From assembly GCA_000004985.1 (NCBI GenBank), contig GG738907.1: DNA of 64,000 nt. One strand, 5' to 3'. Position numbers and translations under genes: made by a program. Below the pieces are notes generated by a model, which was given only the letters and a program-made list of their open reading frames with translations, did no database searches and was not told where the DNA came from. This DNA is from Naegleria gruberi (taxonomy: Eukaryota). Every line of letters begins with the position of its first letter. Positions within the stretch are counted from its first letter, which is position 1. Shown here one piece after another: positions 6,238-27,235 of this stretch.

Positions 6238-8586
6238 CTAATAAATTATTAGAATATTATTATTAGAAAAATTATTAAAATCTTTAAATTCACTTGTTTT
6301 TAAAATACAAATAATAGTTTTTTGTCCTTTAGGTGGAATGGTCCATTTTGTTCTACTACTCATTTCATTACTATTATTACTACTATTACTACTATTACCA
6401 GGACTATTAGTAGATAATGTTGGTGATGATTGATCAAAGTGTTGTAATAAATTCATAGTTGTTGTTGAAGTAGTAGAACCACCACCACCAGATGATGTTG
6501 GTGTGATTGGACTCATTGAAGAATAATTTGAAACAAATTCAATTCCTTTTGGTTTTGAAATTAATTTAACTTTTGATAAAACATCTGAATGATCATTATT
6601 TAAAACTATTTGAAATTTTCTATCAGACCATTTATCAATATAACCAATTTTACCTAAATTAATTGTATTTGATCTTAATGAAACTTCAGAAATACCCATT
6701 TGAATATGAACATTAATTAATTTTAATGCTCGTTGTTCATCATCTGATAAAATTAAAGATCTTTGAAGTTCAACATAATTCTTTTTCAATAAATTTTCAG
6801 TTTCATTATCATTCATTGTTAAAGGTAGACCTGATAACATTGTTACAAGTGTTAATTGTTCACCTGCAGGTAAAATGAATGGTTTACCCTTATTTGGATA
6901 TTGTGTAAATGAATTAAATTGTTTAATTCTTTCTAATTTTTCAATTGAATTTAAAGATGATAATTGTTTAGATTTTTGTTTTTTAACAAATACAATCATA
7001 TCAATATCACTATTAGGTATTAAAATCATATCATTTTTAGAAATGTTTGATAATTGAAATTCTTGTACACCTAATATTGTTGAATTTCTAATTTCATTTC
7101 TTAATTCTTCATCTGAATCTTGTAAATAATCATATTCTTCAACAAGTTGATTTGCTAATTTTTGTAAATGTTGATGTGGAATTCCTGTTATTTTTACAAT
7201 TTGATCATTTTCATCTTGTTCTTTAATAACATAAACATTTGAAAATACCAAAGCATCAACTCCTGAACTATCAGCTTGTAAATTATTACGTAATGATTTA
7301 CGATCATCAACAAATGCACGTATCGCTATTTTACTCACTTCACTATTATTATATGAAGATGATTTGTTTATAATTGTAAAATAATGATCATGAAGTCCAC
7401 TTGTTAATGGATTGAATGTAAATTTTAATACCTTCTTGTTATTTTCATCATCTTCATTAGATGATGTATTATTTGTAGTAGTAGTAGATAATGTATTAGT
7501 AGATGATATGTTATTAGTATTATTACTTGTTGGAATAGGACTATTAATAGGAGTATTATTATTACTATTATTATTATTATTGGAAGAATTAATTTTACAT
7601 CCAATTAAATTACCAACTCTCTCTGAATCATTATTTAAATATAATTCATTTGGTGAAGATGAAATAATTTCATATTCTAAAGGTAAGAATTGATTTCCAT
7701 TTGATAAAGTAAATTGTGAATTAAATGTTTTTAAATTACTTGACCAACCAAAATCAATAAATTGATTATCAATATTTAAAATACTTTTACCAACAAATGC
7801 TCTAATTTGAATGACTTGAGAAAATATTTGTTTTTCTTCATTTAAAACATTTAAAACAATACTACTTGAAAATGAAATACATTTACCCTTCTTTGCTAAA
7901 TTAGAATTTAAATGTGGTTTTAATCCAACATGAATAGTAATAGTTTGTTGAGGTTCTATTTTAATGATTGATTTTTCTGTTAATAAATTTTGTAAATTTT
8001 CATCTGAATAAATTAAAATTTGTTTTTTAGAATTGGAAATTAATTTCAAATTCAATGAATAATCTTTTGTATTTGTAATTTTAAAATTTGAAACTTTTGA
8101 TAAATTATCCAATATTGTTGTTGATGTTGTTGTTGTTGATGTTGGTGATAATTCTGATAAATTAGATGTTGTAGTTGTTGTTGATAAAGATGATAAAGGA
8201 TGAATATAACAAAATCCAAAATTTAAAATTCGATCTTGATTAATATTTTCAATATGAATAGGTGAATCAACTATAACTCTACATTTGATTAAACATTTGT
8301 GAATTATTTTAGTTTTTAAATCTTGAATTTGAACTGAAAATGTTTGAATTCCAGGTAAGAAATATTCGCATGTTAATTCAATAATTTCATGTTTACATGG
8401 TGCAATAGTACCATTCTTAATATTAAATTGAACTTGATAAGATTCTTGTTTTGTTGAATCTAAAATTACAAATCCTGCTTCTTCACTTTTAGATTCATTA
8501 TTAATTGTTAATTTACATTTAATCTTTTCACCAATAGAATTAACACCTAAATCAATTTCATTTGGAACAATTTGAATTGATTTCAT
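6238..8586 (-). CDS. giant multi-ASH/PapD-like repeat protein, segment 3
   Basis: 782-codon ORF with repeated ASH-like motifs (LNFGFCYIHPL, IDFGWSSNLKTFNSQFTLSNG, INLGKIGYIDKW). Its frame is open upstream into the 8789..12214 ORF region. Confidence 0.6.
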   Translation of the reverse strand: MKSIQIVPNEIDLGVNSIGEKIKCKLTINNESKSEEAGFVILDSTKQESYQVQFNIKNGTIAPCKHEIIELTCEYFLPGIQTFSVQIQDLKTKIIHKCLIKCRVIVDSPIHIENINQDRILNFGFCYIHPLSSLSTTTTTSNLSELSPTSTTTTSTTILDNLSKVSNFKITNTKDYSLNLKLISNSKKQILIYSDENLQNLLTEKSIIKIEPQQTITIHVGLKPHLNSNLAKKGKCISFSSSIVLNVLNEEKQIFSQVIQIRAFVGKSILNIDNQFIDFGWSSNLKTFNSQFTLSNGNQFLPLEYEIISSSPNELYLNNDSERVGNLIGCKINSSNNNNNSNNNTPINSPIPTSNNTNNISSTNTLSTTTTNNTSSNEDDENNKKVLKFTFNPLTSGLHDHYFTIINKSSSYNNSEVSKIAIRAFVDDRKSLRNNLQADSSGVDALVFSNVYVIKEQDENDQIVKITGIPHQHLQKLANQLVEEYDYLQDSDEELRNEIRNSTILGVQEFQLSNISKNDMILIPNSDIDMIVFVKKQKSKQLSSLNSIEKLERIKQFNSFTQYPNKGKPFILPAGEQLTLVTMLSGLPLTMNDNETENLLKKNYVELQRSLILSDDEQRALKLINVHIQMGISEVSLRSNTINLGKIGYIDKWSDRKFQIVLNNDHSDVLSKVKLISKPKGIEFVSNYSSMSPITPTSSGGGGSTTSTTTMNLLQHFDQSSPTLSTNSPGNSSNSSNNSNEMSSRTKWTIPPKGQKTIICILKTSEFKDFNNFSNNNILIIY

Positions 8587-8788
8587 TGTTGTTGTTGTTA
8601 ATGATGATGATTGATTACTATTAATTAATTTTGTTACTGATTTGTTATTGTTTGGTATTAATAATTTTGATATGGTTGATTTGTGTAATGATGATATATT
8701 ATTATTATTAGTATTATTAGTATTAAATGTAGTACCAGTTGTTATTGTTGCAGTATTGTTATTAGAATTATTTGTAAGGGTAGTATTA

Positions 8789-11700
8789 TTAGTAGTACCA
8801 ATGGTAGTAGTAGCTACTACTATATAAAGGTGTTAATGGAGTACTAACATTTGAACCTGTTGAACTACTACTACCACTGTTTTGAGTAAAATTCTGGAAT
8901 GATTTGATATCGAAATGTACAATAGAACTCAGAGTGACCATCTTTTGTTCATCTGTATTTCTATTTTCATAAACTAACATTCTACATATACCATTCTCAA
9001 ATGCAATATTTGGTGTTTCTATTAATAGTGGTTTAATCTTTAAATTAATAACTTGAGACATTCTAGGTGGAATTGAAAATCTAATTCCATTCTCTTCAAT
9101 CTTTTTGAATTTTCTTTGTTTTTTACCTTCATCATCTGATTCAGAAACAAATAATGAATCTTCAATATTATTAGTAGTAGAATTACCTGTTATTGTTGTT
9201 GCAATAGTTGGAGTATAATCATCAAAATTTAATTCCTTTTTAATTTCATTAATTCTTTCAGTTAATTTTTTAATTTTTGATGACTTGTTCTTTCTAACAC
9301 AAATTCTATATTTGTGTTCTAATTTTTCTAATTCTGCTTCTAATTTTTCAATTTCAGTACTTTGACTAACTTGTTCCAATTCATATTCAAATTCAAATTT
9401 ACAAAAACTAAAACTACAATAATCAATTTGTGTTTCAAATATTCTTCTATTCTTACTCATATTTGTAACAACAATTTTTTTAGAAAGTGAAAATTGATTC
9501 AATAAAATATTTCCAAAATTAATATCATTAGATTTCAATGTAAATTTTTCATAATTTCTAATATCTGCCTTTACAATAATATTAATACTATCAGATTCAT
9601 CAAGTACATTTTCAAATGTTAAAGTTTCATTAAATACACCTGGTAATGATGGTTTAAAATAGAGTTGAATATCACGTGAACCATATGGTCTTACTAAACC
9701 ACACCATGATAAATTTAATGAATCATCTAACATGTCTAATATTTTAATATCATTAGATGCAATTGAACCTGATCTTTTTATACGAAATAATAATGGTACT
9801 TCAGATCCATTTGAAATGGTTATTGTCTTTTTACGATCTTCTACATTGGTAATGGATCCAAAATTTATATTCTTTTGTGCAATTTCCATCATGGATTGAC
9901 AAATTTTAGATTGAATTGTTAATTCTCTAGGTGGTAATGTAAAATCTGTTTGTTCATTATTTGTATCATAATCTATTAATTCAATAAATAATTTTTCAAA
10001 ATTCTTTTTAATTGCATTCATTGAATTTGTATTATTATTATTGGTATTATTAGTATTGATATTACTACTACCAGTAGTAGTTGTAGATGAAATAGATGTA
10101 GTAGTGTTTGTTGAAATATTATTGAATGAAAAATCACTGTATAAAGATAGAGGTGAAGAATTATTTAAATTAATTGAAGTAAATTTGCTATTTGTACTTT
10201 TTGGTCGATAGGTAATGTAAATTTCAGTTGAACTTGTTGGTCCAATTGAAATTGTGTCACATGGAATGAGAAATTTCAAATCATCAATTGAATTTGAAAG
10301 TTTCTTTTTAAATTCCAATTCATCTCTAATAATCATTTCTTCATCAACATTTTGTGTAGTATCAAATAAAGATTCTTGAATTTTTTCATAAGTTGAAACT
10401 AATTGATCACAATATTCTTGTGGATTAACTTGTTCAGTAAATAATTCATCTGTTACTGATGAATATTCACTATCATCAATCATTAAATTATCATCACTTC
10501 CATCACTGGTTTCATCACTATCATAAATACTCAGTGGTGTTTTTAATTCATCAATACCTTCAAAATGATGAATATTTAACTTTGAAACGTTGGGTTGAGT
10601 CATTATTGATTGTAAATATTCTAAATTTGTTGGATCATTTAATTGTGAAATAAATTTATCATCCATTGATGTTGATCTCTTCAAGGTATTTGATGATTCA
10701 TCCTTCAACTTTTTAAGATAGGGTGATTTTGGTGTGAGTACTGATGAAACACCTGTATTATTAGTACTTGCACTATTATTTGATGTTGTTGTTATGGTAC
10801 TCAATGAAGAAAGTGGTGTTAAATTAGATTGACTTGAAACTCTTTGTAAATTTGAAGTTACAATTTGTTTAACCTTCTTTTTTCTTCTTTTATGAAGAGG
10901 TGGTGGTGTTGATTTAAATTGTTGTTCACTTTCATTCATACTACTATCATCTGTAAATTGTCGATTATTTGTTGTTGTTGTACTACTGTGTGGACTTATT
11001 GTATCATCTTCATCAAAATGATGATGCTGATGAACATTGGATGAAATTAAATTGTAATGATCAGATTGTGAACCACCACCACCACCACCAGATGAATAAT
11101 CCTGATTTGTTATTGTTGTCGTTCTTTTAACTTTAAAAGTTGAAATTTCATTTGGAGATGAAGATTTAAATTTCAATGTAATTGGTTCATCTGAAATGTT
11201 TGAAATTTGAAATTTAGAAAGTGAAATGCCATTCAAAGCAACAACACCAAAATTAATTGATTTTGCAAAATTATGTTGTGAAGTAGTATGTACATCATAA
11301 TATTTACAATGAAAATTTAACATATTTCTATCAATATTATTAGATTCAACTTCAATAATTTGTTCATTCAATTTGTTACTTTCATTTACAATTGTAATTT
11401 GTTTTCTATAATTTGGATTAACTCTTCTAGGTGATAATCTAAATGTAATTCTAATAAATTTATGAGGTGAAATAATTGCTGATTTTGTTTTACATGTTAT
11501 TACTTTAGATGTAAATTGAACTGAAATTCTTGTTGCCAAATCAGATCTATTATAAATTGTTACTGATGCAAATTTAATATCTCCAATGGTTGAATCTCCA
11601 AATTTAATATTAGAAGGTGATACTTCAATAATAGATGTACATGTATGTGCAATAGCTTTAATACTTGCAACTACATTCATTGTATTAGAACTATTATTAT

Positions 11701-12214
11701 TATTATTGGAGGTAGTATTTGTTGATAATAATTGATCATTCATCATTATGGATGATGTATTTGATGATGCTGATGATGTATCAATAGCACTTGTTGTATT
11801 AGCAGAAGTATTTGAAGCACTATTAGTAGTATTACCACTGCTACTACTACTATTACTACTACTTGTACCACCACTCTTCTTACATGTGATTAGAATGGTA
11901 TTCTTTGATTTGGTGACTGAAGTATCTGTAGTGAGTGAATTTTCATCCAATTTAACATGAGCACAAACCATTATCTTTCTTTCAGCTTTAGGTTTAAGTG
12001 AAATTTCTTGAATTCTTTCTCTATAAATTTGTTGAGTATTTGGTAGACAAGTTGAATTGAAATGTGGATTTGAATGATCCATTGAAAGTAAAAAATCATG
12101 TAAATTTGGATCATACAATTCAAAATGAATAAAATCAACATTTTCATGATTATTATGAGAATGTTGATGATGGTGATGATGATGAAAACCATGTTGTTCA
12201 TTATTTCCAATCAC
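8789..12214 (-). CDS. giant multi-ASH/PapD-like repeat protein, segment 2
   Basis: 1141-codon ORF. The ORF-track start is a GTG, not a real start, and the frame stays open upstream. It has many repeats of the pattern I-x-F-G-x(10-14)-I/V-x-I/V-x-N-x-S (IKFGDSTIGDIKFASVTIYNRS, INFGVVALNGISLSKFQISNIS, INFGSITNVEDRKKTITISNGS, INFGNILLNQFSLSKKIVVTNMS), separated by Ser/Thr/Asn linkers and poly-His. Confidence 0.6.
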   Translation of the reverse strand: MIGNNEQHGFHHHHHHQHSHNNHENVDFIHFELYDPNLHDFLLSMDHSNPHFNSTCLPNTQQIYRERIQEISLKPKAERKIMVCAHVKLDENSLTTDTSVTKSKNTILITCKKSGGTSSSNSSSSSGNTTNSASNTSANTTSAIDTSSASSNTSSIMMNDQLLSTNTTSNNNNNSSNTMNVVASIKAIAHTCTSIIEVSPSNIKFGDSTIGDIKFASVTIYNRSDLATRISVQFTSKVITCKTKSAIISPHKFIRITFRLSPRRVNPNYRKQITIVNESNKLNEQIIEVESNNIDRNMLNFHCKYYDVHTTSQHNFAKSINFGVVALNGISLSKFQISNISDEPITLKFKSSSPNEISTFKVKRTTTITNQDYSSGGGGGGSQSDHYNLISSNVHQHHHFDEDDTISPHSSTTTTNNRQFTDDSSMNESEQQFKSTPPPLHKRRKKKVKQIVTSNLQRVSSQSNLTPLSSLSTITTTSNNSASTNNTGVSSVLTPKSPYLKKLKDESSNTLKRSTSMDDKFISQLNDPTNLEYLQSIMTQPNVSKLNIHHFEGIDELKTPLSIYDSDETSDGSDDNLMIDDSEYSSVTDELFTEQVNPQEYCDQLVSTYEKIQESLFDTTQNVDEEMIIRDELEFKKKLSNSIDDLKFLIPCDTISIGPTSSTEIYITYRPKSTNSKFTSINLNNSSPLSLYSDFSFNNISTNTTTSISSTTTTGSSNINTNNTNNNNTNSMNAIKKNFEKLFIELIDYDTNNEQTDFTLPPRELTIQSKICQSMMEIAQKNINFGSITNVEDRKKTITISNGSEVPLLFRIKRSGSIASNDIKILDMLDDSLNLSWCGLVRPYGSRDIQLYFKPSLPGVFNETLTFENVLDESDSINIIVKADIRNYEKFTLKSNDINFGNILLNQFSLSKKIVVTNMSKNRRIFETQIDYCSFSFCKFEFEYELEQVSQSTEIEKLEAELEKLEHKYRICVRKNKSSKIKKLTERINEIKKELNFDDYTPTIATTITGNSTTNNIEDSLFVSESDDEGKKQRKFKKIEENGIRFSIPPRMSQVINLKIKPLLIETPNIAFENGICRMLVYENRNTDEQKMVTLSSIVHFDIKSFQNFTQNSGSSSSTGSNVSTPLTPLYSSSYYYHWYY

Positions 12215-15544: not shown

Positions 15545-18382
15545 ATGTATTTCAACCCTCATATTAAATACGCCTATACTAATAGATATTTAAAATTAAA
15601 TAAAAAAATTCAAATGATTTCGGAGCAAACAACATCTCAAACAGAGGAACAATCATTGGGTTCTTCTTCATCATCAATAACAAGTACTACCACTACTACT
15701 GCTACTACTAGAACATATGATGTAGAAATGGAAAGGATGAGAAGAGATTATTTTAATCATGATGAAAGTATTGTACATTTAGATCATGCAGGTAGTACAT
15801 TAACAAGTAGTAAATGTTTAAAGAAAGCCTTTGAACAATTATTTTTCCCTAATAATAATGATAATAATAATGAGGATGAAACGAATGAAACAAATGATAA
15901 TGATGATACATTAATTAATAATAATAATAATAATAATAATACAATGAAGTATGATCATAGTAATATGATGATATTATCAAATCCACATAGTGATGGATCA
16001 TATTCATCTAGACAAACAAATTTAATAATAACAAAAGCAAGAGAATTAATTTTAAATATATTTAATACAAGTTTAAAAGATTATGATTTAGTATTTACAT
16101 TTAATGCATCTCATTCTATGAAAATTATAAGTGATTGTTTTCCATCAAATGAAAATCATTCAATTGTTGGTTATTTAAATAATTCTCATAATTCTTTAAT
16201 TGGAAGTTTAAGATCAATTCCATCAAAACAATGTCTAGTTTGGAATAATTTAAATGATTACCAATTTTATTTAAAAAATAATTATTTAAATGATAATAAT
16301 ATAAATGATAATAATTTAAATGATAATTCAAATAATACAAATAATTTAAGTTATAAACATTTAATTGGAATATCAGGTGAATGTAATAGTACAGGTAGTA
16401 AAATTGAAGATTTTTCAATATTTAATGAAATTTATAAAAATTATCCAAATATATATACAATATTAGATACATCAAAATATTCAAGTACAAATGTATCAAT
16501 TGATTTATCTAAATATAAACCTGATTTTATAGTAGCAAGTTTATATAAATGGTTTGGATATCCAACTGGATTAGGAATTTTATTAATTCGTAAAATTAGA
16601 ATTTCAAAAATTAATTTTCAACCAAGAAATAATTATTTTGCAGGTGGAAATGTTCAAGTTAATACTTCAACTGAACCTTTTTTTATGAAATATAGAAATG
16701 ATTCATTTCATTCTTTTTTAGAATTTGGTACTATTCCTTTTATAACTATATGTGAAATGTTTTATTATTTTAAACAAGTACAATTAATGTATTCTTTAAT
16801 TTTTAATAATAATAATAATAATTTAAATAATAATTTAAATAATAATAATAATATAAATAATAATAATAATAATTTAAATAATAATATAAATAATAATTTA
16901 AATAAAATAGAAAATAATTTATTAAATTTTAGAGAAATATTTAAAATAATAGAAGAACATACAAAAATATTACAAGAATATTGTATAAATGAATTATTAA
17001 AATTAAAACATTATAATAATAAATTATTATGTAAAATTTATAATTTAAAAAATAAATCAAGTATAATTAATTTAAATTTTTATACAAGTAAAGAATTAAT
17101 GATTGGATATTCACAAATACAAGAATTATGTTCATTAAATAAATTTAATATTAGAAGTGGATGTTTTTGTGTACCTGGTTCATGTCAAGAACTTTTTAAT
17201 TTAAAATTCATTGATTTAATTAATAATTTTGAAAATGGTAAAATATGTTGGAATAATTCAATGGATATTATACCTGGTTCTAAAAATATACCAACTGGTA
17301 GTGTTAGAATATCTTTTGGTTATTCTTCTATTAAAAATGATATTGATAAATTTATTCATTTTATTAAATTAAATTTAATTGATAATAATTTTAAAAAAAT
17401 TAATTATAATTTAAAATCTGATAATATTAAATTATCTCATTTTTATATTTATCCTTTTAAAAGTTGTGCTCCTTTTAAAATTTTTAATAATAATAATTTA
17501 AATAATTTAAATGATTTAAATAATAATAATATAATTAAAACATGGGAATTAATTTCTAATAGTGGAGCATATTTAGATAGAGAATGGGCTATTTTAGATG
17601 AAAATGATTCAATTTTAAATTTAAAAAAATGTACAAAACTAGCTAAAATATTTCCAATTATAGATATGAATAATAGAATTGTAATTTTAAAATTAAATGA
17701 TAATGATAATAATAATTATGAAACTATTGAATTTAAAATAGATGAATATCCAATACAATCACTTGAAAATAAAATATGTGGAAGAGAACATGATTCACTT
17801 GTTTATGGAAATGATGTTAATGAAAAACTTTCTAATTTTTTAGGAATTTCAGTTAAAGTTATAAGAAGAAAACCTTTTAATAATAATAATATTAATATTA
17901 ATAATAATTTAAATAATTCAAATAATTCTAAAAATATTGAATTAAATAATTTAAATAATTGTAAAAATCAATCATCATATTCAAATGAAGGTAATAAGGG
18001 ATTATTTTTAGTATTAAATAAATCATCATTAATAGATTTAAATAAAAGATTAGGATTGAATGATATAACAAATATAGAATGGTTAATAGATAGAATGAGA
18101 CCAAATATAGTAATTGAAGGATTAGAAGAATATGAAGAAGATGAAATTAAATCTATTTATATTAATAATATTCCCTTTCAAATTAATTCACAATGTTCAC
18201 GTTGTACAATGATTTGTATAAATCCAAATACTTTAATACAAGAAGAAGAACCTTTAAGAACTTTATATTCTTATAGAAGATTTGGAAATGGTGTTTTATT
18301 TGGTGTTTATGCTAGTCCATTCACCACCACAAATCAATATTCAATTCAATTAAATTTTAATAATACTAATAATAATGAATAA
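15545..18382 (+). CDS. mocos: molybdenum cofactor sulfurase (MOCOS/ABA3/HxB family)
   Basis: Continuous 945-codon ORF. The N-terminus has a NifS-like class-V aminotransferase signature (VHLDHAGSTL, LYKWFGYPTGLGILLIRK). The C-terminus has a MOSC domain with an SQCSRCTMICINPNT cysteine motif. An alternative start, ATG 15614 (MISEQ...), is possible. There are Asn-rich Dictyostelium-type insertions. Confidence 0.85.
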   Translation: MYFNPHIKYAYTNRYLKLNKKIQMISEQTTSQTEEQSLGSSSSSITSTTTTTATTRTYDVEMERMRRDYFNHDESIVHLDHAGSTLTSSKCLKKAFEQLFFPNNNDNNNEDETNETNDNDDTLINNNNNNNNTMKYDHSNMMILSNPHSDGSYSSRQTNLIITKARELILNIFNTSLKDYDLVFTFNASHSMKIISDCFPSNENHSIVGYLNNSHNSLIGSLRSIPSKQCLVWNNLNDYQFYLKNNYLNDNNINDNNLNDNSNNTNNLSYKHLIGISGECNSTGSKIEDFSIFNEIYKNYPNIYTILDTSKYSSTNVSIDLSKYKPDFIVASLYKWFGYPTGLGILLIRKIRISKINFQPRNNYFAGGNVQVNTSTEPFFMKYRNDSFHSFLEFGTIPFITICEMFYYFKQVQLMYSLIFNNNNNNLNNNLNNNNNINNNNNNLNNNINNNLNKIENNLLNFREIFKIIEEHTKILQEYCINELLKLKHYNNKLLCKIYNLKNKSSIINLNFYTSKELMIGYSQIQELCSLNKFNIRSGCFCVPGSCQELFNLKFIDLINNFENGKICWNNSMDIIPGSKNIPTGSVRISFGYSSIKNDIDKFIHFIKLNLIDNNFKKINYNLKSDNIKLSHFYIYPFKSCAPFKIFNNNNLNNLNDLNNNNIIKTWELISNSGAYLDREWAILDENDSILNLKKCTKLAKIFPIIDMNNRIVILKLNDNDNNNYETIEFKIDEYPIQSLENKICGREHDSLVYGNDVNEKLSNFLGISVKVIRRKPFNNNNININNNLNNSNNSKNIELNNLNNCKNQSSYSNEGNKGLFLVLNKSSLIDLNKRLGLNDITNIEWLIDRMRPNIVIEGLEEYEEDEIKSIYINNIPFQINSQCSRCTMICINPNTLIQEEEPLRTLYSYRRFGNGVLFGVYASPFTTTNQYSIQLNFNNTNNNE

Positions 18383-19292: not shown

Positions 19293-21050
19293 ATGAGTAA
19301 TAATGTAAATTCAAATACTTCTGGAACATCAACACCTACTATATTAATATCCAAATCTAAAAAAGTAAATAATACAATGACAACAATGATGACAGAGAAT
19401 ACAATATTTTCATCAAAATATTTTGTTAGAAATTGGGATACAACACCACAACATGTAACAAGAATGAAACAATTATTTGAATTATATGATCATTTTATTA
19501 ATTTACCATATAAAGATTTGGAATTAAAATTAAAAAGTGATTTATTATTAATATATAATAGAATACTTGGATATTTTCAATTAAATTATTTACATATGAA
19601 AGATTTAGCAATACAAATTAAATGTATTGGATTATTTATTCAAGGTTATAAACCATTACTTGAATTTATTGAAATTGGTGGAACTCAAATTTTATTAGAA
19701 GTTCTTGGATTTCATTATTATAAGAATGAAAATGAAGATAAAAAAGAAGCTTTATTACTTTTAACAAATATTGCTAATAATGGTAGAAAATATAAAGAAG
19801 TTATTTGTTTTGATAATGGTTTAGATTTATTAAGAAATTCAATCATTTATATTCCATCTATAGATATTAATTTAATTGCAAAGAATTTTATTGTTTCAAT
19901 TTATCAAGGAAATCCAAAACATTCAAATGATATTTTAGAATTATTATTTGATATATTTAGAAATCATTCATCTCCAAATAATTGGAAAACCATAAGTGCA
20001 CATTTAAGTTCAAATAATACTCCAAGAAGAAATTCAACTATTAATTTATTAGATAATAATTCACAACAGCAACAACAAACTCAACAACAAGAAATGAATG
20101 CATTTTCATCACCACGTTCAATATTTAATTCACCTAGAGTATTTGGTAATTTTTTAATGTCTCCAAGAACACCAAATGTTGCACACATTACTAATACCAC
20201 TACTAATTCAACTACTGCAACTTCTAAAAATGTAATTCAATCACCCTCCTCTTCAATTTCATTTCAACCAGGTTTAACAACACCTAAAAATGAAGCCACT
20301 CCAAAACAACAATCACTTCCATTCACAAAATTTACATTCCTTAATGTTGTTGAAACTGCTAGAAATCAATTAGCATCAGCTGAAGAATTTAGAAAATCAT
20401 TCGATCCTTCAAATACAAATAATAATATGAACAATAGTAATAATACAAATACAAATAATACAAATAATACAAATACAAATGACAATGCAAATTCAATTGA
20501 ATTATCAACACAATCAATATTATTAATATATTCAATGATAAAAGAAATATCCAAATCTATTAAAATTGAACAAATGAGAGAAACAAGAGTATTAGATATA
20601 ATATTTATGAATTTATCAGATGAAGATATTAGAGTAGTAAGAGAAAGTGTTGAAATGGTTAAAATAGCAATGCAATATCCAGATGAAAATGAAATATTTT
20701 CAGAAATGTTAATACATAGATCAATACAAGGATTATCAATGATTGTAATTGTTTTAGGAAAGAGAAGATTTAAAACTATTTTAAAACAATTTTTTAAAAA
20801 TTCAAATTATTTAAATAATTCAAAAGAAGAAATTAATTATTCAAAGAATTTTTTAAATTTAATATTTGGAGCATGTTCAATTATGAATTTAATTTTAGAA
20901 AATGCAATTGAACATGTTAATATTTGTAAAATAATGTTTGAAAGTAATATTATATTAACTTTAATAGAAAGTATTTTAATTATTAAAGAAAAATATGGTG
21001 ATACACATTATTGTGTTGATACATCAAAAGAAATGACACAATTGTTAAGG
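19293..21050 (+). CDS. ARM/HEAT-like helical-repeat protein, exon 1
   Basis: ORF with an alpha-helical repeat-like core (LLEVLGFHYYKNENEDKKEALLLLTNIANNG). It ends at AGG|GTAATT, a canonical donor at 21051. Confidence 0.6.
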
Positions 21051-21129
21051 GTAATTTATTAATTTTTATAATTTTTATATTTAATAATTTTAATTTAATT
21101 TTTATATTTTTAATTAATTTTTAAAAAAG

Positions 21130-21372
21130 AGACTATTGTGGACATTTGAAGATTTTAAAAGACATAATATATTTAATAATACAACTGTAATAACAAATCC
21201 ATTTGATTTACTTGTACAAATATTTGGAGAGGAAACAACATTAAAATTAAATTCCAAATATGAAAGTTTTAATACAGATCAAAGTTTCTTCCTTCAAGAT
21301 TCAATTCAAAGATCAAATGTTGAACAAGCAAGACAATTAATTGTATCAAAAAAGTCATCCTTTATTAAATAA
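21130..21372 (+). CDS. same gene, exon 2 (C-terminal)
   Basis: A 79-nt AT-rich intron (21051-21129) ends ..aaaaaag. Exon 2 continues in phase 0 (RLLWTFEDFKRHN...) to TAA at 21370-21372. The ORF-track M at 21136 is a TTG. Confidence 0.6.
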   Translation, partial: RLLWTFEDFKRHNIFNNTTVITNPFDLLVQIFGEETTLKLNSKYESFNTDQSFFLQDSIQRSNVEQARQLIVSKKSSFIK

Positions 21373-21607
21373 ATTATTACAATATTTCTTCTGATCACAT
21401 TATTCCGTGTATGATTTGTGATGATGAATAAATCAATTTAAACGGACTCTTAAATAGTTTGGTGTTGAATCATAATCTGATTTAAATGTTCAACAATATT
21501 ACATTTAATAAACGGAGAGTATTAATTAATAGATATTTTATGATGACTTGATGTATTGACAATGTAAATGTCAATCTGTCATTACATTAAAAAAAACAAT
21601 ACGTTGA

Positions 21608-24600
21608 ATGTCAAAGCTTTTTGGATTAAATTCAACAGCATCAGGTCATTCAAGAGACGAAGAAGAGGATGATCAAAATATTGAAGATTATCAATCATCA
21701 TCATTTAACGTAGATAGAGCAACAACAAGTTATTCAAAACCTATTCAAATTAATAATCAAATGGATAATAATTCATCATCACCTAATTCCTATAATAATA
21801 ATAGTGGTGGTAAACAATTGGGTAATAAACCACCTCCACCACTTCCACCACCTGGTACTTTTACTGATAACATACAAATCAATACCATTAACACCAACAA
21901 CACCAACAACATTAACACCAATCAAAATAATTTATCAAGTTCTCCACAATTTACTTTAGGTAAAAGTTTTGCTAGTCTTCAAAATTCTGAAGCAAGATCA
22001 AGGGCTAGTTTTCAACCATCCATGATGACAAATGTTAAACCAGCAAGAAAAGATACAAATGCTCATAGACTTGTTCATCAAGTATCATCTTCATCATCTG
22101 ATAATAATTTAACAAATAATTTAACAACCAATGATAATGATATAACAAGTAATTTAAAATGGGCTAAAATTGATAGTGGATTATATTTAAATGAAAAGAT
22201 TGAATTAATTTGGAATGATGAAATATTTAATAATAATAATAATAATGAAAATGAATTATTTAATATTTATTTATTTTCATTTACACGTATTATTGGTACT
22301 TATTTTGATCAATTTGGATTACAAAATTTACAATTATTACAACAAGAAGAATCAACTATTAGATTATTAGATAAAATATATGATCAATTATATTCAAGAG
22401 TATATACTATTGTATTTAAAATACCAAATTTAAATATTTTATTACAATATATTAATAATAGAAAAAGTAGAATTTTATATATTTTAAAAACATTTTCAAT
22501 TAATTTAATTTTAAATTCTTTATTATTAGATTTTATTAATTATTATAATGATGGTAATAATTTAAATAATAATATTTTAAATTTATGGTCTTTATTAGAA
22601 CAATCTACTATTATAAATAATAATACAAATAATATTGATACTATTACAAATGATAATACCACTTTAAATCCTCTTTATAATGATATTCAACAACAATCAG
22701 AACAACAATTAGAATCTATTACAAATAATAATATCAATAATAATATCAATAATAATAATAATACTATTAATACAATTAATAATAATGAAAGAAGAAGAAC
22801 ACTTGAATCAGAAGAGAGTGAATCAGATTTAGTATTAGATAAAGAAGATTTTGGAATGGCAGTATTTACAGCAGGTAGAGATGATTTTAGATTATCAACT
22901 GTTTCATCCGATTCATATGATCCAACATCAACTGATTTAACTATTAAATCATCAGTTAATAATAATTATGTATTACCACCACTTCCACCTTCAAACAAAC
23001 CAAAAAGAACCAATGAAATTGACATTACTAATAATACATCATTATCATCATCACCACCACCACCTATTATTCCACAAAACAAACCTCAAAAACCTCAACC
23101 ACCTCAATTCATTCAACCACAACAACAACAACCAATTATTCAACCAATTGTTCAACCATCAACAACTGAATCTGAAAATATACCAAGTGGTATTGGTGGT
23201 AATGGAATGGTTAGACCTCCTAAACCTCAAACTAAACCAAAAATTAATGATAGTACTTCATCCAATAATAATACTACATTATCTTCCAATAATAATAGTA
23301 GTAATAATAATTTATTATCTGTTAATAATACAAGTACAAATACAAGTACAAGTAATACAAGTAGAAATAATAGACATTTAACAGATGATCAAAATAGAAT
23401 GCAAAAAGCCAAATCAGTTTCATTAGATTTTGATAGATTTGGTGGACTTGGTACAACACCACCACATGCAGTTGATAATTTAATTGTAAAGAAAACTAAA
23501 AGAGTTCAAAATAGATCAAAACCAACTGCAACAAGTAAAAATGAAGTTAAAAAAGAATTGGCAAGAGTTGAACAAGATGCTCAAGAAACTTCACTTAATA
23601 ATATTCCAATTATTATTACAAATAATACTACTACAAATAATAATAATACTACTACAAGTAATACAAATAATAATACAAGTACAACAACAGGTAAATCATC
23701 ACCTAGAGATAATAAGAATAGTAGTAAACCAACATCTACTTATATTCCAATTATTACTGGACCAATTCCAATTATGGGAGGTGTACCAATGATGGGAATA
23801 GCAGGTGGTATATTAAAAAAGAAGAATAGTGAAAATCAATTGAAAAAGGATGAAAATATTGATCAATATACTTCAACAAGTAATGTTAGTAGTGGAGTAG
23901 TGGATACAAGTCCACGTACAGGAGGTAATAATACTAGTAAATTTACACCACCTGTTGCACCACCAATTCCAGGTAAGAAACCACCAACCACAACAACATC
24001 CAATTCTAATAGTAGTAGTAGTACTACTAGTTCACCAATTGTTAGTAGTAGGATTGAAAATTCACCACAAGTTAATACTGAACCACCACCACCACAACAA
24101 CCAAAGAGAGCTGTAGCACCACCAATTCCAAGTAATAATAATAATAATAATAACAAACCTCAAACTAAACCACCTCCACCACCAATCAATGAAGAACAAT
24201 CAACTATAGGTAAACAACCACCTCCACCACCACCAGAAGATGAAGAAGAAAATGTTACTACTACTACAAATAATACAAATAATACAAATAATAGACCACC
24301 TATTCCATCAGGATTGAAAAAGACAACAGCTCCTCCACCTCCACCACCAGAAGAAGATGATAATTCACTTCCATCTAAACCATCCAATCCACCACCACCT
24401 ATTAATCCATCTATATTAGAATCAAAACCTAAAAAGACACCACCTCCACCTCCATCATCATCATCTACTGCTGCTACTACTACTGATATGAATGATAGTA
24501 ATAATAGAGGATTGAAAAAGACAACACCACCTCCACCTCCACCACCAGAAGATGATGATGAACAAGATAATCAAACAGCAATAACATCACCATCATCAGT

Positions 24601-25498
24601 GTCAGTAACAAATGATGCTAATAGAAGATTAAGTGTTGCAATTTCACAATCAGTATTATCTGAAATGAGATTAAAGAAAACTCAACAAGATGATACTCAA
24701 TCAAATGATAATACATCATCATCATCAGTTGGAGGAGGAAGTGTTCAACAAGTTGATTTTAGATCTGCATTGAAAAAGAAGGAATCTACAAGTAATTTAA
24801 ATACTTCTGCTACTTCACCAAATACTATTAATACTATTAATACTAATACAAGTAATACAAGTAATAGTGTTAATACTCCTTCAAGTGGTCAAATTGATTT
24901 TAGATCTAATTTAAAAAAGAAAGATCAACCATCTTCTTCTTCTACCACTCAACCATCTTCAATTGATACTACTAAGAGTAATAATAATAATACTATTACT
25001 CCACCACCATCAACAACAACTAGAACTACTACTTCACCTAATACTAATAATAATACAGGAAGTGGTACACAAGTTGATTTTAGATCAAATTTAAAGAAAA
25101 AGACAGAAGATCAATCAAATACTTCACCACCATCTGTTCAAGTTGTACAAGATAAAAAGAATGAAATTCCACCATCAAAACCATCCAATCCACCTCCATC
25201 TACTACTACTGCTACTACTGGTGGTGGAGGAGTTCAACAAGTTGATTTTAGATCTCAACTCAAAAACAAAACATCAAATACTACTACTCCAACTTCTACT
25301 ACTACACCAGTAACAACAACAACACCACCACCTGTTAAATCAACCACAACTACAACACCAGTAACAACAACAACACCACCATCATCTGTATCATCAACAC
25401 CTTCTACTCCAACAAGTGGTGCTGCTGTTACTGCTAATAGTGCTGGTGAAGCTCAACAAGTAGATTTTAGATCAATTTTAAAGAAGAGAAAAGAATAA
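21608..25498 (+). CDS. proline-rich, low-complexity protein with GLKKTT-polyPro motifs and five C-terminal QQVDFRSxLKKK repeats; a putative cytoskeletal/adaptor protein
   Basis: Continuous 1296-codon ATG ORF. It has PPPPLPPPG and polyPro-acidic stretches (GLKKTTPPPPPPPEDDDE three times) and five spaced repeats of (Q)QVDFRS-x-LKKK. The N-terminal 300 aa are non-repetitive. Confidence 0.65.
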   Translation: MSKLFGLNSTASGHSRDEEEDDQNIEDYQSSSFNVDRATTSYSKPIQINNQMDNNSSSPNSYNNNSGGKQLGNKPPPPLPPPGTFTDNIQINTINTNNTNNINTNQNNLSSSPQFTLGKSFASLQNSEARSRASFQPSMMTNVKPARKDTNAHRLVHQVSSSSSDNNLTNNLTTNDNDITSNLKWAKIDSGLYLNEKIELIWNDEIFNNNNNNENELFNIYLFSFTRIIGTYFDQFGLQNLQLLQQEESTIRLLDKIYDQLYSRVYTIVFKIPNLNILLQYINNRKSRILYILKTFSINLILNSLLLDFINYYNDGNNLNNNILNLWSLLEQSTIINNNTNNIDTITNDNTTLNPLYNDIQQQSEQQLESITNNNINNNINNNNNTINTINNNERRRTLESEESESDLVLDKEDFGMAVFTAGRDDFRLSTVSSDSYDPTSTDLTIKSSVNNNYVLPPLPPSNKPKRTNEIDITNNTSLSSSPPPPIIPQNKPQKPQPPQFIQPQQQQPIIQPIVQPSTTESENIPSGIGGNGMVRPPKPQTKPKINDSTSSNNNTTLSSNNNSSNNNLLSVNNTSTNTSTSNTSRNNRHLTDDQNRMQKAKSVSLDFDRFGGLGTTPPHAVDNLIVKKTKRVQNRSKPTATSKNEVKKELARVEQDAQETSLNNIPIIITNNTTTNNNNTTTSNTNNNTSTTTGKSSPRDNKNSSKPTSTYIPIITGPIPIMGGVPMMGIAGGILKKKNSENQLKKDENIDQYTSTSNVSSGVVDTSPRTGGNNTSKFTPPVAPPIPGKKPPTTTTSNSNSSSSTTSSPIVSSRIENSPQVNTEPPPPQQPKRAVAPPIPSNNNNNNNKPQTKPPPPPINEEQSTIGKQPPPPPPEDEEENVTTTTNNTNNTNNRPPIPSGLKKTTAPPPPPPEEDDNSLPSKPSNPPPPINPSILESKPKKTPPPPPSSSSTAATTTDMNDSNNRGLKKTTPPPPPPPEDDDEQDNQTAITSPSSVSVTNDANRRLSVAISQSVLSEMRLKKTQQDDTQSNDNTSSSSVGGGSVQQVDFRSALKKKESTSNLNTSATSPNTINTINTNTSNTSNSVNTPSSGQIDFRSNLKKKDQPSSSSTTQPSSIDTTKSNNNNTITPPPSTTTRTTTSPNTNNNTGSGTQVDFRSNLKKKTEDQSNTSPPSVQVVQDKKNEIPPSKPSNPPPSTTTATTGGGGVQQVDFRSQLKNKTSNTTTPTSTTTPVTTTTPPPVKSTTTTTPVTTTTPPSSVSSTPSTPTSGAAVTANSAGEAQQVDFRSILKKRKE

Positions 25499-25756
25499 TG
25501 TAAAATAAATTGAATTTTATGAAAAGAAAGACCATTGGTACAATAAAACAAACACTTTATTGAATGAATATTTACCTTAATCTCAATTGGTTCTTAACGA
25601 ACATTAAGGTGCTGATGCGTATTTTTTTACCTTAAGAATTCTGGTTTAATAGTATAATATCTGGGTTCTATTCCTATTACCGTTATTAGTTTTTTGAACT
25701 CCTTAACTCAGGTATTAAATGAGAACAATTACCACTTATCTAACTCAAATCGTTTC

Positions 25757-25991
25757 NNNNNNNNNNNNNNNNNNNNNNNNNNNNNNNNNNNNNNNNNNNN
25801 NNNNNNNNNNNNNNNNNNNNNNNNNNNNNNNNNNNNNNNNNNNNNNNNNNNNNNNNNNNNNNNNNNNNNNNNNNNNNNNNNNNNNNNNNNNNNNNNNNNN
25901 NNNNNNNNNNNNNNNNNNNNNNNNNNNNNNNNNNNNNNNNNNNNNNNNNNNNNNNNNNNNNNNNNNNNNNNNNNNNNNNNNNNNNNNNNNN
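25757..25991. other. assembly gap (N-run)
   Basis: 235 N characters. No flank duplication is evident. Confidence 0.95.
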
Positions 25992-27235
25992 TGATTAAAA
26001 TGTTATGTGCATAACTGTGTTCTGGAGATTCAATTTGTTTTAGTTTACAATAAATACCAAAGCTGTCAGGTTGAAAAATCCGCCAACAGTCTTTCTTAGA
26101 CTAAATGAAAAGCATTATGAGAAATATTGATAACTATTAATTGAAAAGATGGATTTGGTTCCACAACATACCATTATTTTTGCAACTCTTAATCTTTGGA
26201 TTATGTTGTATTACTGTCTCATACTCTATTGGGAAGTAATCGCAATTAATTATTGCGCGTTGTGAGTTATCTCTTCTTTGGAGAGTTTATTTCTTCAGTT
26301 TGTTAGGTGAGATATTTCACAACTTGATAAACTTGCGGACGTATAAATTTGAAATTAGTATGCCATACTTAAGTGGGCTCTTTATCAATTTTCTTGCAAG
26401 TAAACTCAATTTGCATTTACGATAATATGAAATCTTTGTGCAAAGTATGATGGCTGTATCGAGTGAGATCTCAGCCAAGACCTAAAACAGAAACTCCACC
26501 AACTTGAAGAAAAGCCATAGAACCCAACAACATACCACCAAGCACAGAAGAATATTACTCATTTAATAATGCAGATGTGGTGTATCAGGTAACAAAAGAA
26601 GAAGAAATGCTACTAAGCATATTGGCATGACAAGTATTGGCTTTGTTTTGTTGCCCGGGCAACTAGGAGTAGTTCGTACGTTTTTAATTTGCTATTTATA
26701 ATAAATATTTTCACACATACATGCTTTATTACAATAATGGGAAAGTATGAGTGAGTGTAGAGTTCAAAAACCATTTATCAAACTAATTAGGGAAGATTCG
26801 TCTGTATCTCAGCAGAAGTTCTGATATTGATTGAGGATTTGATTTTGGTTTGGTAAAAGTACAATTCTTAAAGAGAGTTGTGAATCCAAATAATGGACCA
26901 AGTATTTGTCGTGTTATTTCTTGTTTTGTTTCAATTATGGAGTTTCTGTATGTAGGAACCATTGAATGCAATACTTAATTATAGAATCAAAAAACAAGTC
27001 TATTTGTACAGTACAATAAGAATCATATCCATAAATGAATCTTCTTATCATTGAAAATTAACCATTTTCCAATCCATTTCTCCAACAAAACAAAATTTGC
27101 GCTTCCAGGCTATTGTCTTGTTCAAAAATCAATTTCTCTTAAATTATTACACCTCACTCTTCTTCACGTCATAATTAATTCTAAAACCATGAATAAAGAG
27201 GTTCATTGATCTTAATAATAATAAATTTATTTTTT

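What the first reader, a model, noticed from the sequence alone, without database searches (positions are those of the whole stretch)
24735..25498. Five spaced QQVDFRS-x-LKKK repeats plus GLKKTT-polyPro-acidic motifs in a 1,296-aa protein
The C-terminal 250 aa contain five copies of a 12-aa motif (VQQVDFRSALKKKE, GQIDFRSNLKKKD, TQVDFRSNLKKKT, VQQVDFRSQLKNKT, AQQVDFRSILKKRKE), separated by 40-55-aa Ser/Thr/Pro linkers. Upstream are three GLKKTT(P)6-8(E/D)3-4 motifs and other polyproline runs. Short basic LKK(K/T) helices next to polyproline are reminiscent of WH2/thymosin-like actin-monomer-binding motifs combined with profilin/SH3/EVH1-binding proline tracts (WASP/verprolin/Ena-VASP ligands). 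The exact motif is not one I can assign to a known family.
Basis: inference. Interest (0 to 1): 0.5.

Follow-up and report, generated by a model that had tools for sequence, protein, structure and literature searches.

The report
MLCK-type DFRXXL actin-binding repeats in amoeba protein
The five repeats are real and match the DFRXXL motif that anchors vertebrate smooth-muscle myosin light-chain kinase to actin filaments, so the tail of this slime-mould protein is most likely a multi-site actin-filament anchor rather than a WH2 actin-monomer binder.

Summary
A single-exon 1,296-aa ORF (21608-25498, +) ends in a disordered Ser/Thr/Asn/Pro tail with five copies of Q-[VI]-DFRS-x-LK-x-[KR]. The last copy sits at the C-terminus.

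The motif is not WH2. Pfam WH2 misses every repeat, although it scores a control WH2 at 1e-13.

It is the DFRXXL F-actin-binding motif of smooth/non-muscle MLCK. Repeat 1 (SVQQVDFRSALKKKES) matches 11 of 16 residues of rabbit MLCK motif 2 (SPQQVDFRSVLAKKGT).

A profile built only from the five window repeats, searched against 1.84 billion proteins, returned 34 hits. All are multi-copy DFRxxLKK arrays:
- Vertebrate MLCK N-termini.
- Ig-linked arrays.
- A formin FH2 protein with a DFR tail.
- PH-domain proteins, one from Percolomonas, that end in the same QQxDFRSxLKKRxE terminus.

The reverse profile, built from MLCK motifs, hits exactly the five repeats (E 1e-11 at Z = 1.84e9).

My best reading is a multivalent F-actin side-binding tail (confidence 0.7). 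The binding itself is inferred, not shown. The motif kind is known. I found no report of it outside vertebrate MLCK in the library I searched, so I file this as a new member of a known kind. Interest is moderate.

The parts
21608..25498 (+). Single-exon CDS of 1,296 aa, rich in Asn/Ser/Thr/Pro. No Pfam domain is detected.
   Evidence: An in-frame TGA lies directly upstream of the ATG. The upstream DUF5578 gene ends at 21372, so there is no room for an upstream exon.
24749..24781 (+). DFRXXL-type repeat 1 (aa 1048-1058, QVDFRSALKKK; with flank SVQQVDFRSALKKKES)
24890..24922 (+). DFRXXL-type repeat 2 (aa 1095-1105, QIDFRSNLKKK)
25070..25102 (+). DFRXXL-type repeat 3 (aa 1155-1165, QVDFRSNLKKK)
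25238..25270 (+). DFRXXL-type repeat 4 (aa 1211-1221, QVDFRSQLKNK)
25457..25489 (+). DFRXXL-type repeat 5 (aa 1284-1294, QVDFRSILKKR), followed only by KE and the stop codon. This terminal position is conserved in relatives.
   Evidence: (hhalign 97.7%, E 2e-12)
24623..24682 (+). RRLSVAISQSVLSEMRLKKT (aa 1006-1025). It looks WH2-like by eye only (hydrophobic helix plus LKKT). Pfam WH2 is negative.
24311..24361 (+). GLKKTT-A-P6-EEDD (aa 902-918)
   Evidence: The role as a proline-tract ligand is inferred.
24509..24568 (+). GLKKTT-P7-EDDDEQD (aa 968-987)
   Evidence: The role as a proline-tract ligand is inferred.
23777..23824 (+). GGVPMMGIAGGILKKK (aa 724-739). Its counterparts are GVPMMG..DLRAVLKKR in Percolomonas P0035, PMMG/PMLG/PMFG..L[KR][KR]T in P0012/P0014/P0007, and GPMPGMG..DLRAGLRK after the FH2 domain of P0019. 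It may be a degenerate DXRXXL half-motif.
   Evidence: by inspection; no statistic
23534..23605 (+). SKNEVKKELARVEQDAQETSLNNI (aa 643-666). This is the top, colinear but weak match to the conserved LLxQVEKQAxEESLxxIK segment of the PH-DFR family.
   Evidence: hhalign E 0.04 over the whole protein
22250..22552 (+). Predicted helical region (aa ~215-315). It may correspond to the helical bundle that follows the PH domain in relatives.
   Evidence: E 0.13, colinear; helical, but pLDDT 37, unreliable; the relatives' bundle has pLDDT ~90

Best explanation
The last ~250 residues form a disordered Ser/Thr/Pro tail carrying five MLCK-type DFRXXL motifs (extended consensus Q-[VI]-D-F-R-S-x-L-K-K-[KR]). 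By analogy with smooth/non-muscle MLCK, each motif would dock onto one protomer on the side of an actin filament. Five weak sites on flexible linkers would then give high-avidity attachment that could be dynamic, sliding along the filament. This would tether the rest of the protein (an N-terminal helical region and proline-rich tracts) to F-actin.

The linkers are 34-60 aa, against about 15-20 aa in MLCK. Neighbouring motifs could therefore skip protomers or bridge two filaments.

Shown here: the motifs, their conservation, and their statistical identity with MLCK DFRXXL motifs. Taken from the literature: DFRXXL binds F-actin at one motif per actin protomer. Inferred: that this protein binds F-actin in that way, and the roles of the upstream polyproline and LKKT elements.
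For: 1. Five invariant D-F-R-S-x-L-K cores are the only aromatic or hydrophobic islands in the tail. The copies differ synonymously at the DNA level.
2. Published rabbit MLCK N75 is MDFRANLQRQVK...SPQQVDFRSVLAKKGT...TPDFRSVLGSKKK (PMC4586593). Repeat 1, SVQQVDFRSALKKKES, matches 11 of 16 residues. BLASTP of N75 against the tail aligns only at the repeats, and at all five of them.
3. A profile of the five window repeats searched against 1.84e9 proteins gave 34 hits at E<=1e-3 (best 1.4e-20). All are multi-copy DFRxxL arrays.
   - P0024 is 96% identical to rabbit N75.
   - P0029 is a fish-like MLCK N-terminus with an I-set domain.
   - Four other hits are arrays next to I-set domains.
4. The reverse profile, built from 8 vertebrate MLCK motifs, scores the window protein 59.4 bits (E 1.2e-11 at Z = 1.84e9) at exactly the five repeats. 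None of 2,000 shuffles and no other window ORF is reported.
5. Over 112 motif instances from the hits, positions the regex did not select agree with the window: Q at -2 in 91/112, V/I/L at -1 in 73/112, K at +6 in 76/112, K at +7 in 63/112.
6. The motif sits in actin-related contexts. One hit has an FH2 formin domain (Pfam 1.5e-70) followed by three DFR motifs ending QVDFRANLKKRDE*. PH-domain proteins carry the same tail and terminus.
7. Literature:
   - DFRXXL is a high-affinity F-actin motif. Three motifs give one MLCK per three actins, and MLCK-147 binds with Kd 0.26 uM (PMC2196421).
   - Five DXRXXL motifs suffice for stress-fibre targeting (PMC2185581).
   - N75 binds single filaments and stress fibres and diffuses along bundles (PMC4586593).
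Against: - No binding experiment exists for this protein or for any non-MLCK array.
- The motif is short, so convergence cannot be told apart from common descent.
- Spacing is 47-73 aa. In MLCK it is 28-29 aa, and in most database arrays 23-30 aa.
- There is no solved structure of a DFRXXL-actin complex to check side-chain compatibility. The only structural evidence is a negative-stain reconstruction.
- Close dictyostelid orthologues could not be retrieved.
- Outside the tail, homology to the PH-DFR family is only weak and colinear.
Confidence: 0.7

Rival explanations
1. The repeats are WH2/thymosin-like motifs that bind actin monomers through a short helix plus LKK[KT]. They would work with the polyproline tracts to feed profilin-actin, as in WASP, verprolin or Ena/VASP-type proteins.
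For: - Each repeat contains LKK[KR], and polyproline tracts lie upstream.
- Two database proteins with DFR arrays (P0009, P0012) also carry LRKV-type, WH2-looking segments, so the two motif types can occur together.
Against: - Pfam WH2 and Thymosin give no hit at E<=10 to any repeat, the whole tail or the whole protein. Control WH2 and thymosin peptides score 1e-13 and 3e-23.
- Gly/Ser residues lie immediately upstream of Q-V-D-F, which leaves no room for the ~3-turn amphipathic helix of WH2.
- The invariant D, F, R and S are not WH2 features.
- The profile search did not surface any protein with a Pfam WH2 domain, but did return MLCK.
Confidence: 0.12
2. The repeats are basic motifs with a non-actin role. 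Candidates are nuclear localisation signals (LKKKE, KKRKE), calmodulin- or acidic-lipid-binding patches, or RxxL degrons.
For: - There are K/R clusters, and RxxL is the minimal D-box.
- From my own memory, uncited: the MLCK N-terminal actin-binding region is also reported to bind Ca2+/calmodulin.
Against: - None of these roles explains the invariant Q-Φ-D-F-R-S core.
- None explains the arrays with 23-30 aa periodicity in other proteins.
- None explains the association with MLCK, formin FH2 and PH-domain cortical architectures.
Confidence: 0.08
3. The repeats are a functionless by-product of low-complexity repeat expansion in an AT-rich genome.
For: The protein is 50% N/S/T/P and full of microsatellite-like runs.
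Against: - Tandem Repeats Finder finds no DNA array with the period of the motifs.
- The copies differ by synonymous changes, and the linkers have diverged completely.
- The same motif and the same C-terminal placement recur in proteins from organisms with 37-47% GC and in Percolomonas.
Confidence: 0.03

Closest known systems
DFRXXL/DXRXXL F-actin-binding motifs of vertebrate smooth-muscle/non-muscle MLCK (MYLK N-terminus; three in short MLCK, five in long MLCK)
   Same: - Identical D-F-R-x-x-L core and near-identical flanks (QQVDFRSxLxKK).
- Five copies in an unstructured Pro/Ser/Thr/Lys-rich segment.
- Profile detection works in both directions.
   Different: - The host protein has no kinase, Ig, Fn or telokin domain.
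- The array is at the C-terminus, not at or near the N-terminus.
- Spacing is 47-73 aa rather than 28-29 aa.
- The basic run after the Leu is stronger (LKKK).
- The organism is a dictyostelid-like amoeba, not a vertebrate.
Unnamed PH - helical bundle - DFR-tail proteins (P0035 from Percolomonas sp. WS; metagenomic P0012, P0014, P0007, P0008)
   Same: - A C-terminal array of 3-6 DFRxxL motifs ending in QQxDFRSxLKKRxE at the very terminus.
- An upstream PMMG...LKK element and an EK-rich segment, in the same order along the protein.
   Different: - These proteins have an N-terminal PH domain (Pfam up to 7e-8; model pLDDT ~80-88 over most of the domain; Foldseek top hit the TAPP1 PH domain). None is detectable in the window protein.
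- Similarity outside the tail is not statistically significant.
- There is no synteny.
Formin with a DFR tail (P0019: FH2 domain followed by three DFRAxLKKR motifs)
   Same: The same motif and the same C-terminal ending (QVDFRANLKKRDE*), in a protein that certainly acts on actin.
   Different: The window protein has no FH2 domain. Spacing in P0019 is 24-28 aa.
WH2 motif (PF02205) and beta-thymosin (PF01290)
   Same: Short, intrinsically disordered actin-binding peptides containing LKK[TVK], often repeated and often next to polyproline.
   Different: - They bind G-actin through a longer N-terminal amphipathic helix.
- There is no D-F-R core.
- The Pfam models do not match.
Troponin I C-terminal region (MDLRANLKQVKK; sequence recalled from memory)
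   Same: It fits DXRXXLK and lies in an actin-binding part of troponin I. One DFR-array protein (P0009) gives a weak Pfam Troponin hit at the C-terminal end of the model (E 0.005).
   Different: The link is not supported statistically. Profiles of 5 or 111 DFR instances find no troponin or any other relevant chain in the PDB at E<=10. Treat it as a lead only.

Membership tests
DFRXXL-type (MLCK-type) F-actin-binding motif array | Core D-F-R-x-x-L (D-x-R-x-x-L in the wider definition) | tested here: met
   Five of five copies read DFRSxL.
DFRXXL-type (MLCK-type) F-actin-binding motif array | Three or more copies in an unstructured segment | tested here: met
   Five copies lie in a tail that is S/T/N/P-rich. 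No Phe occurs outside the motifs, and only one Leu does.
DFRXXL-type (MLCK-type) F-actin-binding motif array | Statistically detectable similarity to bona fide MLCK motifs, flanks included | tested here: met
   - The window profile finds MLCK fragments P0024 (E 6e-5 in 1.84e9 proteins; 96% identical to rabbit N75) and P0029.
- The MLCK-only profile finds the five repeats (E 1.2e-11).
- Repeat 1 matches 11/16 residues of MLCK motif 2.
DFRXXL-type (MLCK-type) F-actin-binding motif array | About 28-29 residue periodicity between motifs | tested here: not met
   Spacings are 47, 60, 56 and 73 aa. The PH-DFR relatives also show wide spacings (46-152 aa) as well as some of 26-32 aa.
DFRXXL-type (MLCK-type) F-actin-binding motif array | Direct F-actin binding at one motif per actin protomer, abolished by mutation of the motif | not testable with these tools
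   Known only for MLCK (PMC2196421, PMC2185581). It needs co-sedimentation or imaging experiments.
Myosin light-chain kinase (protein family) | Ser/Thr kinase domain, Ig I-set and Fn3 modules, telokin | tested here: not met
   Pfam finds no domain at E<=10 in the 1,296-aa protein. It is not an MLCK.
WH2 (PF02205) | Match to the WH2 profile (amphipathic helix, linker, LKKT/V) | tested here: not met
   No hit at E<=10 for the protein, the repeats, the GLKKTT peptides, the PMMG peptide or the RLSVAIS...LKKT peptide. A positive-control WIP WH2 scores 9.6e-14.
Beta-thymosin (PF01290) | Match to the Thymosin profile | tested here: not met
   No hit. Control thymosin beta-4 scores 2.6e-23.
WASP-family VCA module | WH2, then a connector, then an acidic segment with a conserved Trp | tested here: not met
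   The acidic runs after the polyproline tracts (aa 877-881, 915-918, 981-987) contain no Trp. By eye, the protein's few Trp residues (0.2% of residues) all lie in the N-terminal part (KWAK, IWND, LWSL). No WH2 profile hit.
PH - helical - DFR-tail family (unnamed; P0035/P0012/P0014/P0007) | C-terminal DFR array ending QQxDFRSxLKKRxE at the terminus | tested here: met
   hhalign of A4 against the window protein: 97.7%, E 2.3e-12. phmmer against P0007: 1.1e-12.
PH - helical - DFR-tail family (unnamed; P0035/P0012/P0014/P0007) | N-terminal PH domain | tested here: not met
   No Pfam PH hit. hhalign of the PH region gives E 0.15-0.3, on low-complexity sequence only. There is no space for an upstream exon.
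PH - helical - DFR-tail family (unnamed; P0035/P0012/P0014/P0007) | Helical bundle and EK-rich segment between the PH domain and the tail | tested here: inconclusive
   The best hhalign matches over the whole protein fall at colinear places (aa 278-313, E 0.13; aa 643-666, E 0.04) but are weak. The single-sequence AF2 model of the window region has pLDDT 37.

The most novel reading that the evidence does not exclude
DFRXXL is not a vertebrate MLCK peculiarity. It would be an ancient, pan-eukaryotic F-actin side-binding short linear motif, used in arrays by unrelated actin-associated proteins:
- MLCK/Ig proteins in animals.
- A formin tail.
- A PH-domain cortical family found in Heterolobosea and amoeba-like organisms.

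The window gene would be the dictyostelid, PH-less representative of that last, so far unnamed family, which would link membrane or scaffold to F-actin. This would give a genetically tractable system (Dictyostelium) for working out how DFRXXL binds actin, which has never been resolved at high resolution.
Probability: 0.45. Interest if true: 0.65.

Novelty: new member of a known kind. Interest (0 to 1): 0.55.

Why it matters
In the library searched, the DFRXXL motif is discussed only for vertebrate smooth/non-muscle MLCK. All 8 papers found that mention DFRXXL or DXRXXL concern MLCK. No paper contains the extended peptides from this protein.

The only structural picture of how the motif docks on actin that I found is a 2001 negative-stain reconstruction, and profile searches of the PDB returned no chain carrying the motif.

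Finding the same motif, with the same flanks, in three further settings matters for two reasons. The settings are a five-copy tail in a dictyostelid protein, PH-domain proteins of a heterolobosean, and a position after a formin FH2 domain.
- It suggests a widely used class of actin-filament-binding peptide that has been overlooked.
- It offers simple model proteins for testing stoichiometry, avidity, sliding and bundling as a function of motif number and linker length.

For genome annotation, it turns a 'low-complexity hypothetical protein' into a testable F-actin-associated scaffold.

Tried and rejected
- **Word-index homologue searches.** All three found nothing: the whole protein (8,000 low-complexity candidates, none significant), a doubled-motif profile (273 candidates, none at E<=10) and the N-terminal helical region.
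- **Exact-sequence look-up.** The window protein and the upstream ORF are not in the collection, so the organism and its orthologues could not be named.
- **Metagenome locus scan.** A scan with the whole protein produced 600 pattern matches, none confirmed.
- **PDB sequence searches.** Searches with the tail, with the 5-repeat profile and with a 111-instance profile gave nothing relevant. The only matches were chance DFRSALK in ribosomal protein S9. The troponin I resemblance was therefore dropped to a lead.
- **AF2 of the window N-terminal region (aa 171-350).** pLDDT was 37, so the model was not used.
- **AF2 of the relatives' N-terminus.** It gave a confident PH domain and a helical bundle. 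Foldseek against the PDB returned only PH domains. The afdb50 library was unavailable, so a route to a named D. discoideum orthologue was closed.
- **Genomic context.** The contexts of P0007, P0012, P0014 and P0006 show no synteny with the window and give no organism names. Cluster look-ups gave only one named organism, Percolomonas sp. WS.
- **Upstream PH-domain exon.** Rejected. The upstream gene's last exon ends at 21372, and the 235-nt gap is full of stop codons.
- **Reading Smith et al. 1999 (JBC).** The paper is not held in the library.
Full report
**Observation**

The window is AT-rich (GC about 25%) and its proteins are Asn-rich, so it looks dictyostelid. ORF 21608..25498 (+) encodes 1,296 aa with no intron. 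An in-frame TGA precedes the ATG.

The upstream gene is a separate DUF5578 gene (Pfam 4.7e-25). Its last exon ends at 21372. There is therefore no room for extra 5' exons.

A regex finds five [VI]DFRS.LK.[KR] motifs, at aa 1049, 1096, 1156, 1212 and 1285. The last is followed only by KE and the stop codon. With flanks, the repeats read:
- SVQQVDFRSALKKKES
- SSGQIDFRSNLKKKDQ
- SGTQVDFRSNLKKKTE
- GVQQVDFRSQLKNKTS
- EAQQVDFRSILKKRKE

Q(-2), D, F, R, S, L and K are invariant.

The protein's composition predicts about 2e-5 copies of DFRS.LK. All five Phe and five of the six Leu in the last 254 residues lie inside the motifs.

The copies differ at synonymous sites. The linkers (34-60 aa, S/T/N/P-rich) cannot be aligned. 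Tandem Repeats Finder sees no DNA repeat with that period. The repeats are therefore conserved peptide islands in a diverging disordered tail.

Start-to-start spacing is 47, 60, 56 and 73 aa. Only two exact GLKKTT-polyPro-acidic motifs exist (aa 902-918 and 968-987).

**Is it WH2?**

Pfam finds nothing at E<=10 in any of these queries:
- the whole protein;
- the 254-aa tail (only sub-threshold chance-level hits, best E 0.066 to Acylphosphatase; no WH2 or Thymosin);
- each repeat with its flanks;
- the GLKKTT peptides;
- the PMMG...LKKK peptide.

The RLSVAIS...LKKT peptide gives no WH2 or Thymosin hit either, only a chance-level Sld7_C match (E 0.071).

In the same search a control WIP WH2 peptide scores 9.6e-14 on PF02205.

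Gly/Ser residues lie directly upstream of Q-V-D-F, so there is no room for the three-turn amphipathic helix of WH2. The invariant D-F-R-S is not a WH2 feature. WH2 membership is tested and not met.

**What the motif is**

The motif reminded me of the DFRXXL actin-binding motifs of smooth-muscle MLCK, so I checked the literature.
- Hatch et al. 2001 (PMC2196421) describe DFRXXL as a high-affinity F-actin-binding sequence. [quoted passage not shown] MLCK-147 binds with Kd 0.26 uM.
- Poperechnaya et al. 2000 (PMC2185581) show that the five DXRXXL motifs, spaced 28-29 aa apart, are sufficient for stress-fibre targeting.
- Hong et al. [quoted passage not shown] They show that this peptide binds single filaments and stress fibres and diffuses along bundles.

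MLCK motif 2 (SPQQVDFRSVLAKKGT) and window repeat 1 (SVQQVDFRSALKKKES) share 11 of 16 residues. BLASTP of N75 against the tail aligns only at the repeats, and at all five of them.

**Statistical test in both directions**

A 30-column profile made only from the five window repeats (A3) was run with hmmsearch against 1.84 billion representative proteins. It gave 34 proteins at E<=1e-3 and six at E<=1e-10. Each has 2-6 matched stretches, and every one is an array of DFRxxL motifs. Among them:
- P0024 (E 6e-5) contains a segment 96% identical to rabbit N75, plus the two extra upstream motifs of long MLCK (DVRGVL and LDFRDLL).
- P0029 is a second vertebrate-type MLCK N-terminus, followed by an I-set domain.
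- P0016, P0020, P0025 and P0028 are arrays next to I-set domains.
- P0019 is a formin. Its FH2 domain scores 1.5e-70, and its tail carries three motifs and ends QVDFRANLKKRDE*.
- P0004/P0035, P0007, P0012 and P0014 have an N-terminal PH domain and a C-terminal DFR array. P0008 is a fragment of the same tail type.

In reverse, an HMM built from the eight DFRXXL instances of P0024 and P0029 scores the window protein 59.4 bits. That is E 1.2e-11 with Z set to 1.84e9, and the matches fall exactly on the five repeats. None of 2,000 shuffles of the protein and no other ORF of the window is reported. This test is partly circular, because P0024 and P0029 were found with the window profile. P0024's identity to the independently published N75 removes most of that concern.

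Over 112 distinct motif instances from the hits, positions the regex did not select agree with the window: Q at -2 (91/112), V/I/L at -1 (73/112), K at +6 (76/112), K at +7 (63/112).

Pfam has no model for this motif. MLCK N75 and the MLCK fragments hit nothing, or only Ig domains. The PDB contains no chain with the motif.

**Relatives of the whole protein**

P0035 (Percolomonas sp. WS, Heterolobosea), P0012, P0014 and P0007 share one layout, in this order:
1. A PH domain. Pfam scores reach 7e-8, and the AF2 model has pLDDT ~80-88 over most of the domain. Foldseek's best PDB hit is the TAPP1 PH domain.
2. A linker.
3. A confident helical bundle of about 85 aa.
4. Proline-rich sequence.
5. An EK-rich segment, LLxQVEKQAxEESLxxIK.
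6. A (G)VPMMG...L[KR][KR] element.
7. Three to six DFRxxL motifs, the last at the C-terminus: QQ[VMH]DFR[SA]xLKKRx[ED]*.

The window protein ends AQQVDFRSILKKRKE*. hhalign of the four-protein alignment against it gives 97.7% probability and E 2.3e-12 for this terminus. phmmer against P0007 gives 1.1e-12 over the tail.

The window protein also has GGVPMMGIAGGILKKK (aa 724-739). When the family's helical and EK sub-profiles are scanned over the whole 1,296 aa, the best matches fall at colinear places: aa 278-313 (E 0.13) and aa 643-666 (E 0.04). Those matches are weak.

No PH domain is detectable. I therefore treat the window protein as a probable PH-less relative of this family. That is an inference. 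The only firmly shared part is the tail.

The contigs carrying the relatives have 37-47% GC and no synteny with the window. Close dictyostelid orthologues could not be found with the available searches.

**Mechanism**

- Shown: five conserved DFRXXL-type motifs on flexible linkers at the C-terminus.
- From the literature: each such motif in MLCK binds one actin protomer on the filament side. Affinity and stress-fibre targeting increase with motif number. The three-motif peptide binds filaments without bundling them and can slide along bundles.
- Inferred: the tail is a multivalent F-actin anchor.

Most database arrays have 23-30 aa spacing, like MLCK. The window protein and the PH-family members have longer linkers. 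Neighbouring motifs could then contact non-adjacent protomers or two filaments.

Upstream lie polyproline runs followed by acidic clusters (P6-EDEEE, GLKKTT-A-P6-EEDD, GLKKTT-P7-EDDDE). They are plausible profilin, SH3 or EVH1 ligands, but this was not testable here. P0012 has a comparable [AL]KKGPPPxVP motif three times, interleaved with its DFR motifs. The acidic runs contain no Trp, so a WASP-type Arp2/3-binding 'A' segment is unlikely.

**Rivals**

- WH2-type G-actin binding (0.12) is contradicted by the profile tests and by the nature of the database hits.
- A generic basic motif such as an NLS, a calmodulin- or lipid-binding patch or an RxxL degron (0.08) does not explain the invariant Q-Φ-D-F-R-S or the protein contexts.
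- A neutral low-complexity repeat (0.03) is contradicted by the synonymous differences between copies and by conservation across distant taxa.

**Novelty**

The motif kind is known. In the searchable library, all eight papers that mention DFRXXL or DXRXXL concern MLCK. One of them notes that C. elegans MLCK-1 lacks the motif. No paper contains the extended peptides.

Its occurrence in a dictyostelid protein, in a PH-domain family that includes a heterolobosean, and after a formin FH2 domain therefore appears to be undescribed. Much of the literature is not in the searchable library, so this is not certain.

I classify the finding as a new member of a known kind, with moderate interest (0.55).

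The main limits are these:
- There is no experiment on any non-MLCK array.
- The motif is short, so convergence cannot be excluded.
- No named orthologues were found.
- There is no structural template.

Noticed in passing
window 25758-25992: A run of N (an assembly gap) lies about 260 nt downstream of the stop codon. The flanking sequence (25500-26400) is less AT/homopolymer-rich than usual for dictyostelid intergenic DNA, so it may be the edge of a repeat or transposon.
   Followed up: no
window 19293-21372 (+): The upstream gene encodes a DUF5578 protein (Pfam 4.7e-25). It has one short intron (about 21056-21128, GTAATT...AAAAAG). The last exon reads RLLWTFEDFK...SSFIK*.
   Followed up: partly
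window 21373-21607: The 235-nt gap between the two genes is not the usual poly-A/T dictyostelid intergenic sequence. It is full of stop codons in all frames and was read by eye only.
   Followed up: no
window 3113-12214 (-): Of three large ORFs, two carry CFAP65/CFAP74-type Ig-like or PapD-like (flagellar-associated) domains and a Cep192-like domain. This is unexpected in a lineage without flagella. All of these hits except one (Ig_CFAP65_4th in the 8789-12214 ORF, 36.1 bits against a cutoff of 27) are below Pfam's gathering thresholds.
   Followed up: no
window 15545-18382 (+): Aminotran_5 + MOSC_N + MOSC architecture, i.e. a molybdenum cofactor sulfurase-like gene.
   Followed up: no
P0012 aa 760-880 (locus L003); window aa 902-987: The relative P0012 has three [AL]KKGPPPxVP motifs interleaved with its DFR motifs. 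This echoes the window's GLKKTT-polyPro motifs. An LKK-x-polyPro unit may be a second conserved element of these tails.
   Followed up: partly
P0035 aa 523-546; P0019 aa ~445-465; window aa 724-739 (nt 23777-23824): The (G)VPMMG element that precedes the DFR arrays is followed by DLRAVLKKR in Percolomonas and by DLRAGLRK in the formin. These are DXRXXL variants. The window copy (GGILKKK) has lost the D-x-R.
   Followed up: partly
P0009 aa 138-152: One DFR-array protein gives a weak Pfam Troponin hit at the C-terminal end of the model (E 0.005). From memory, troponin I MDLRANLKQVKK resembles MLCK motif 1, MDFRANLQRQVK. Profile searches of the PDB did not support a link.
   Followed up: partly
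database hits P0001-P0034: Motif spacing in most DFR arrays clusters tightly at 23-30 residues, for example 25/25/25 in P0010, 27/26/25/25/29 in P0006 and 28/28/28 in MLCK. This fits a ruler set by the actin subunit repeat. The PH-family and window tails break the rule.
   Followed up: partly
window 59820-59890 (-): A tRNA-Trp (CCA) gene, the only tRNA found in the window.
   Followed up: no
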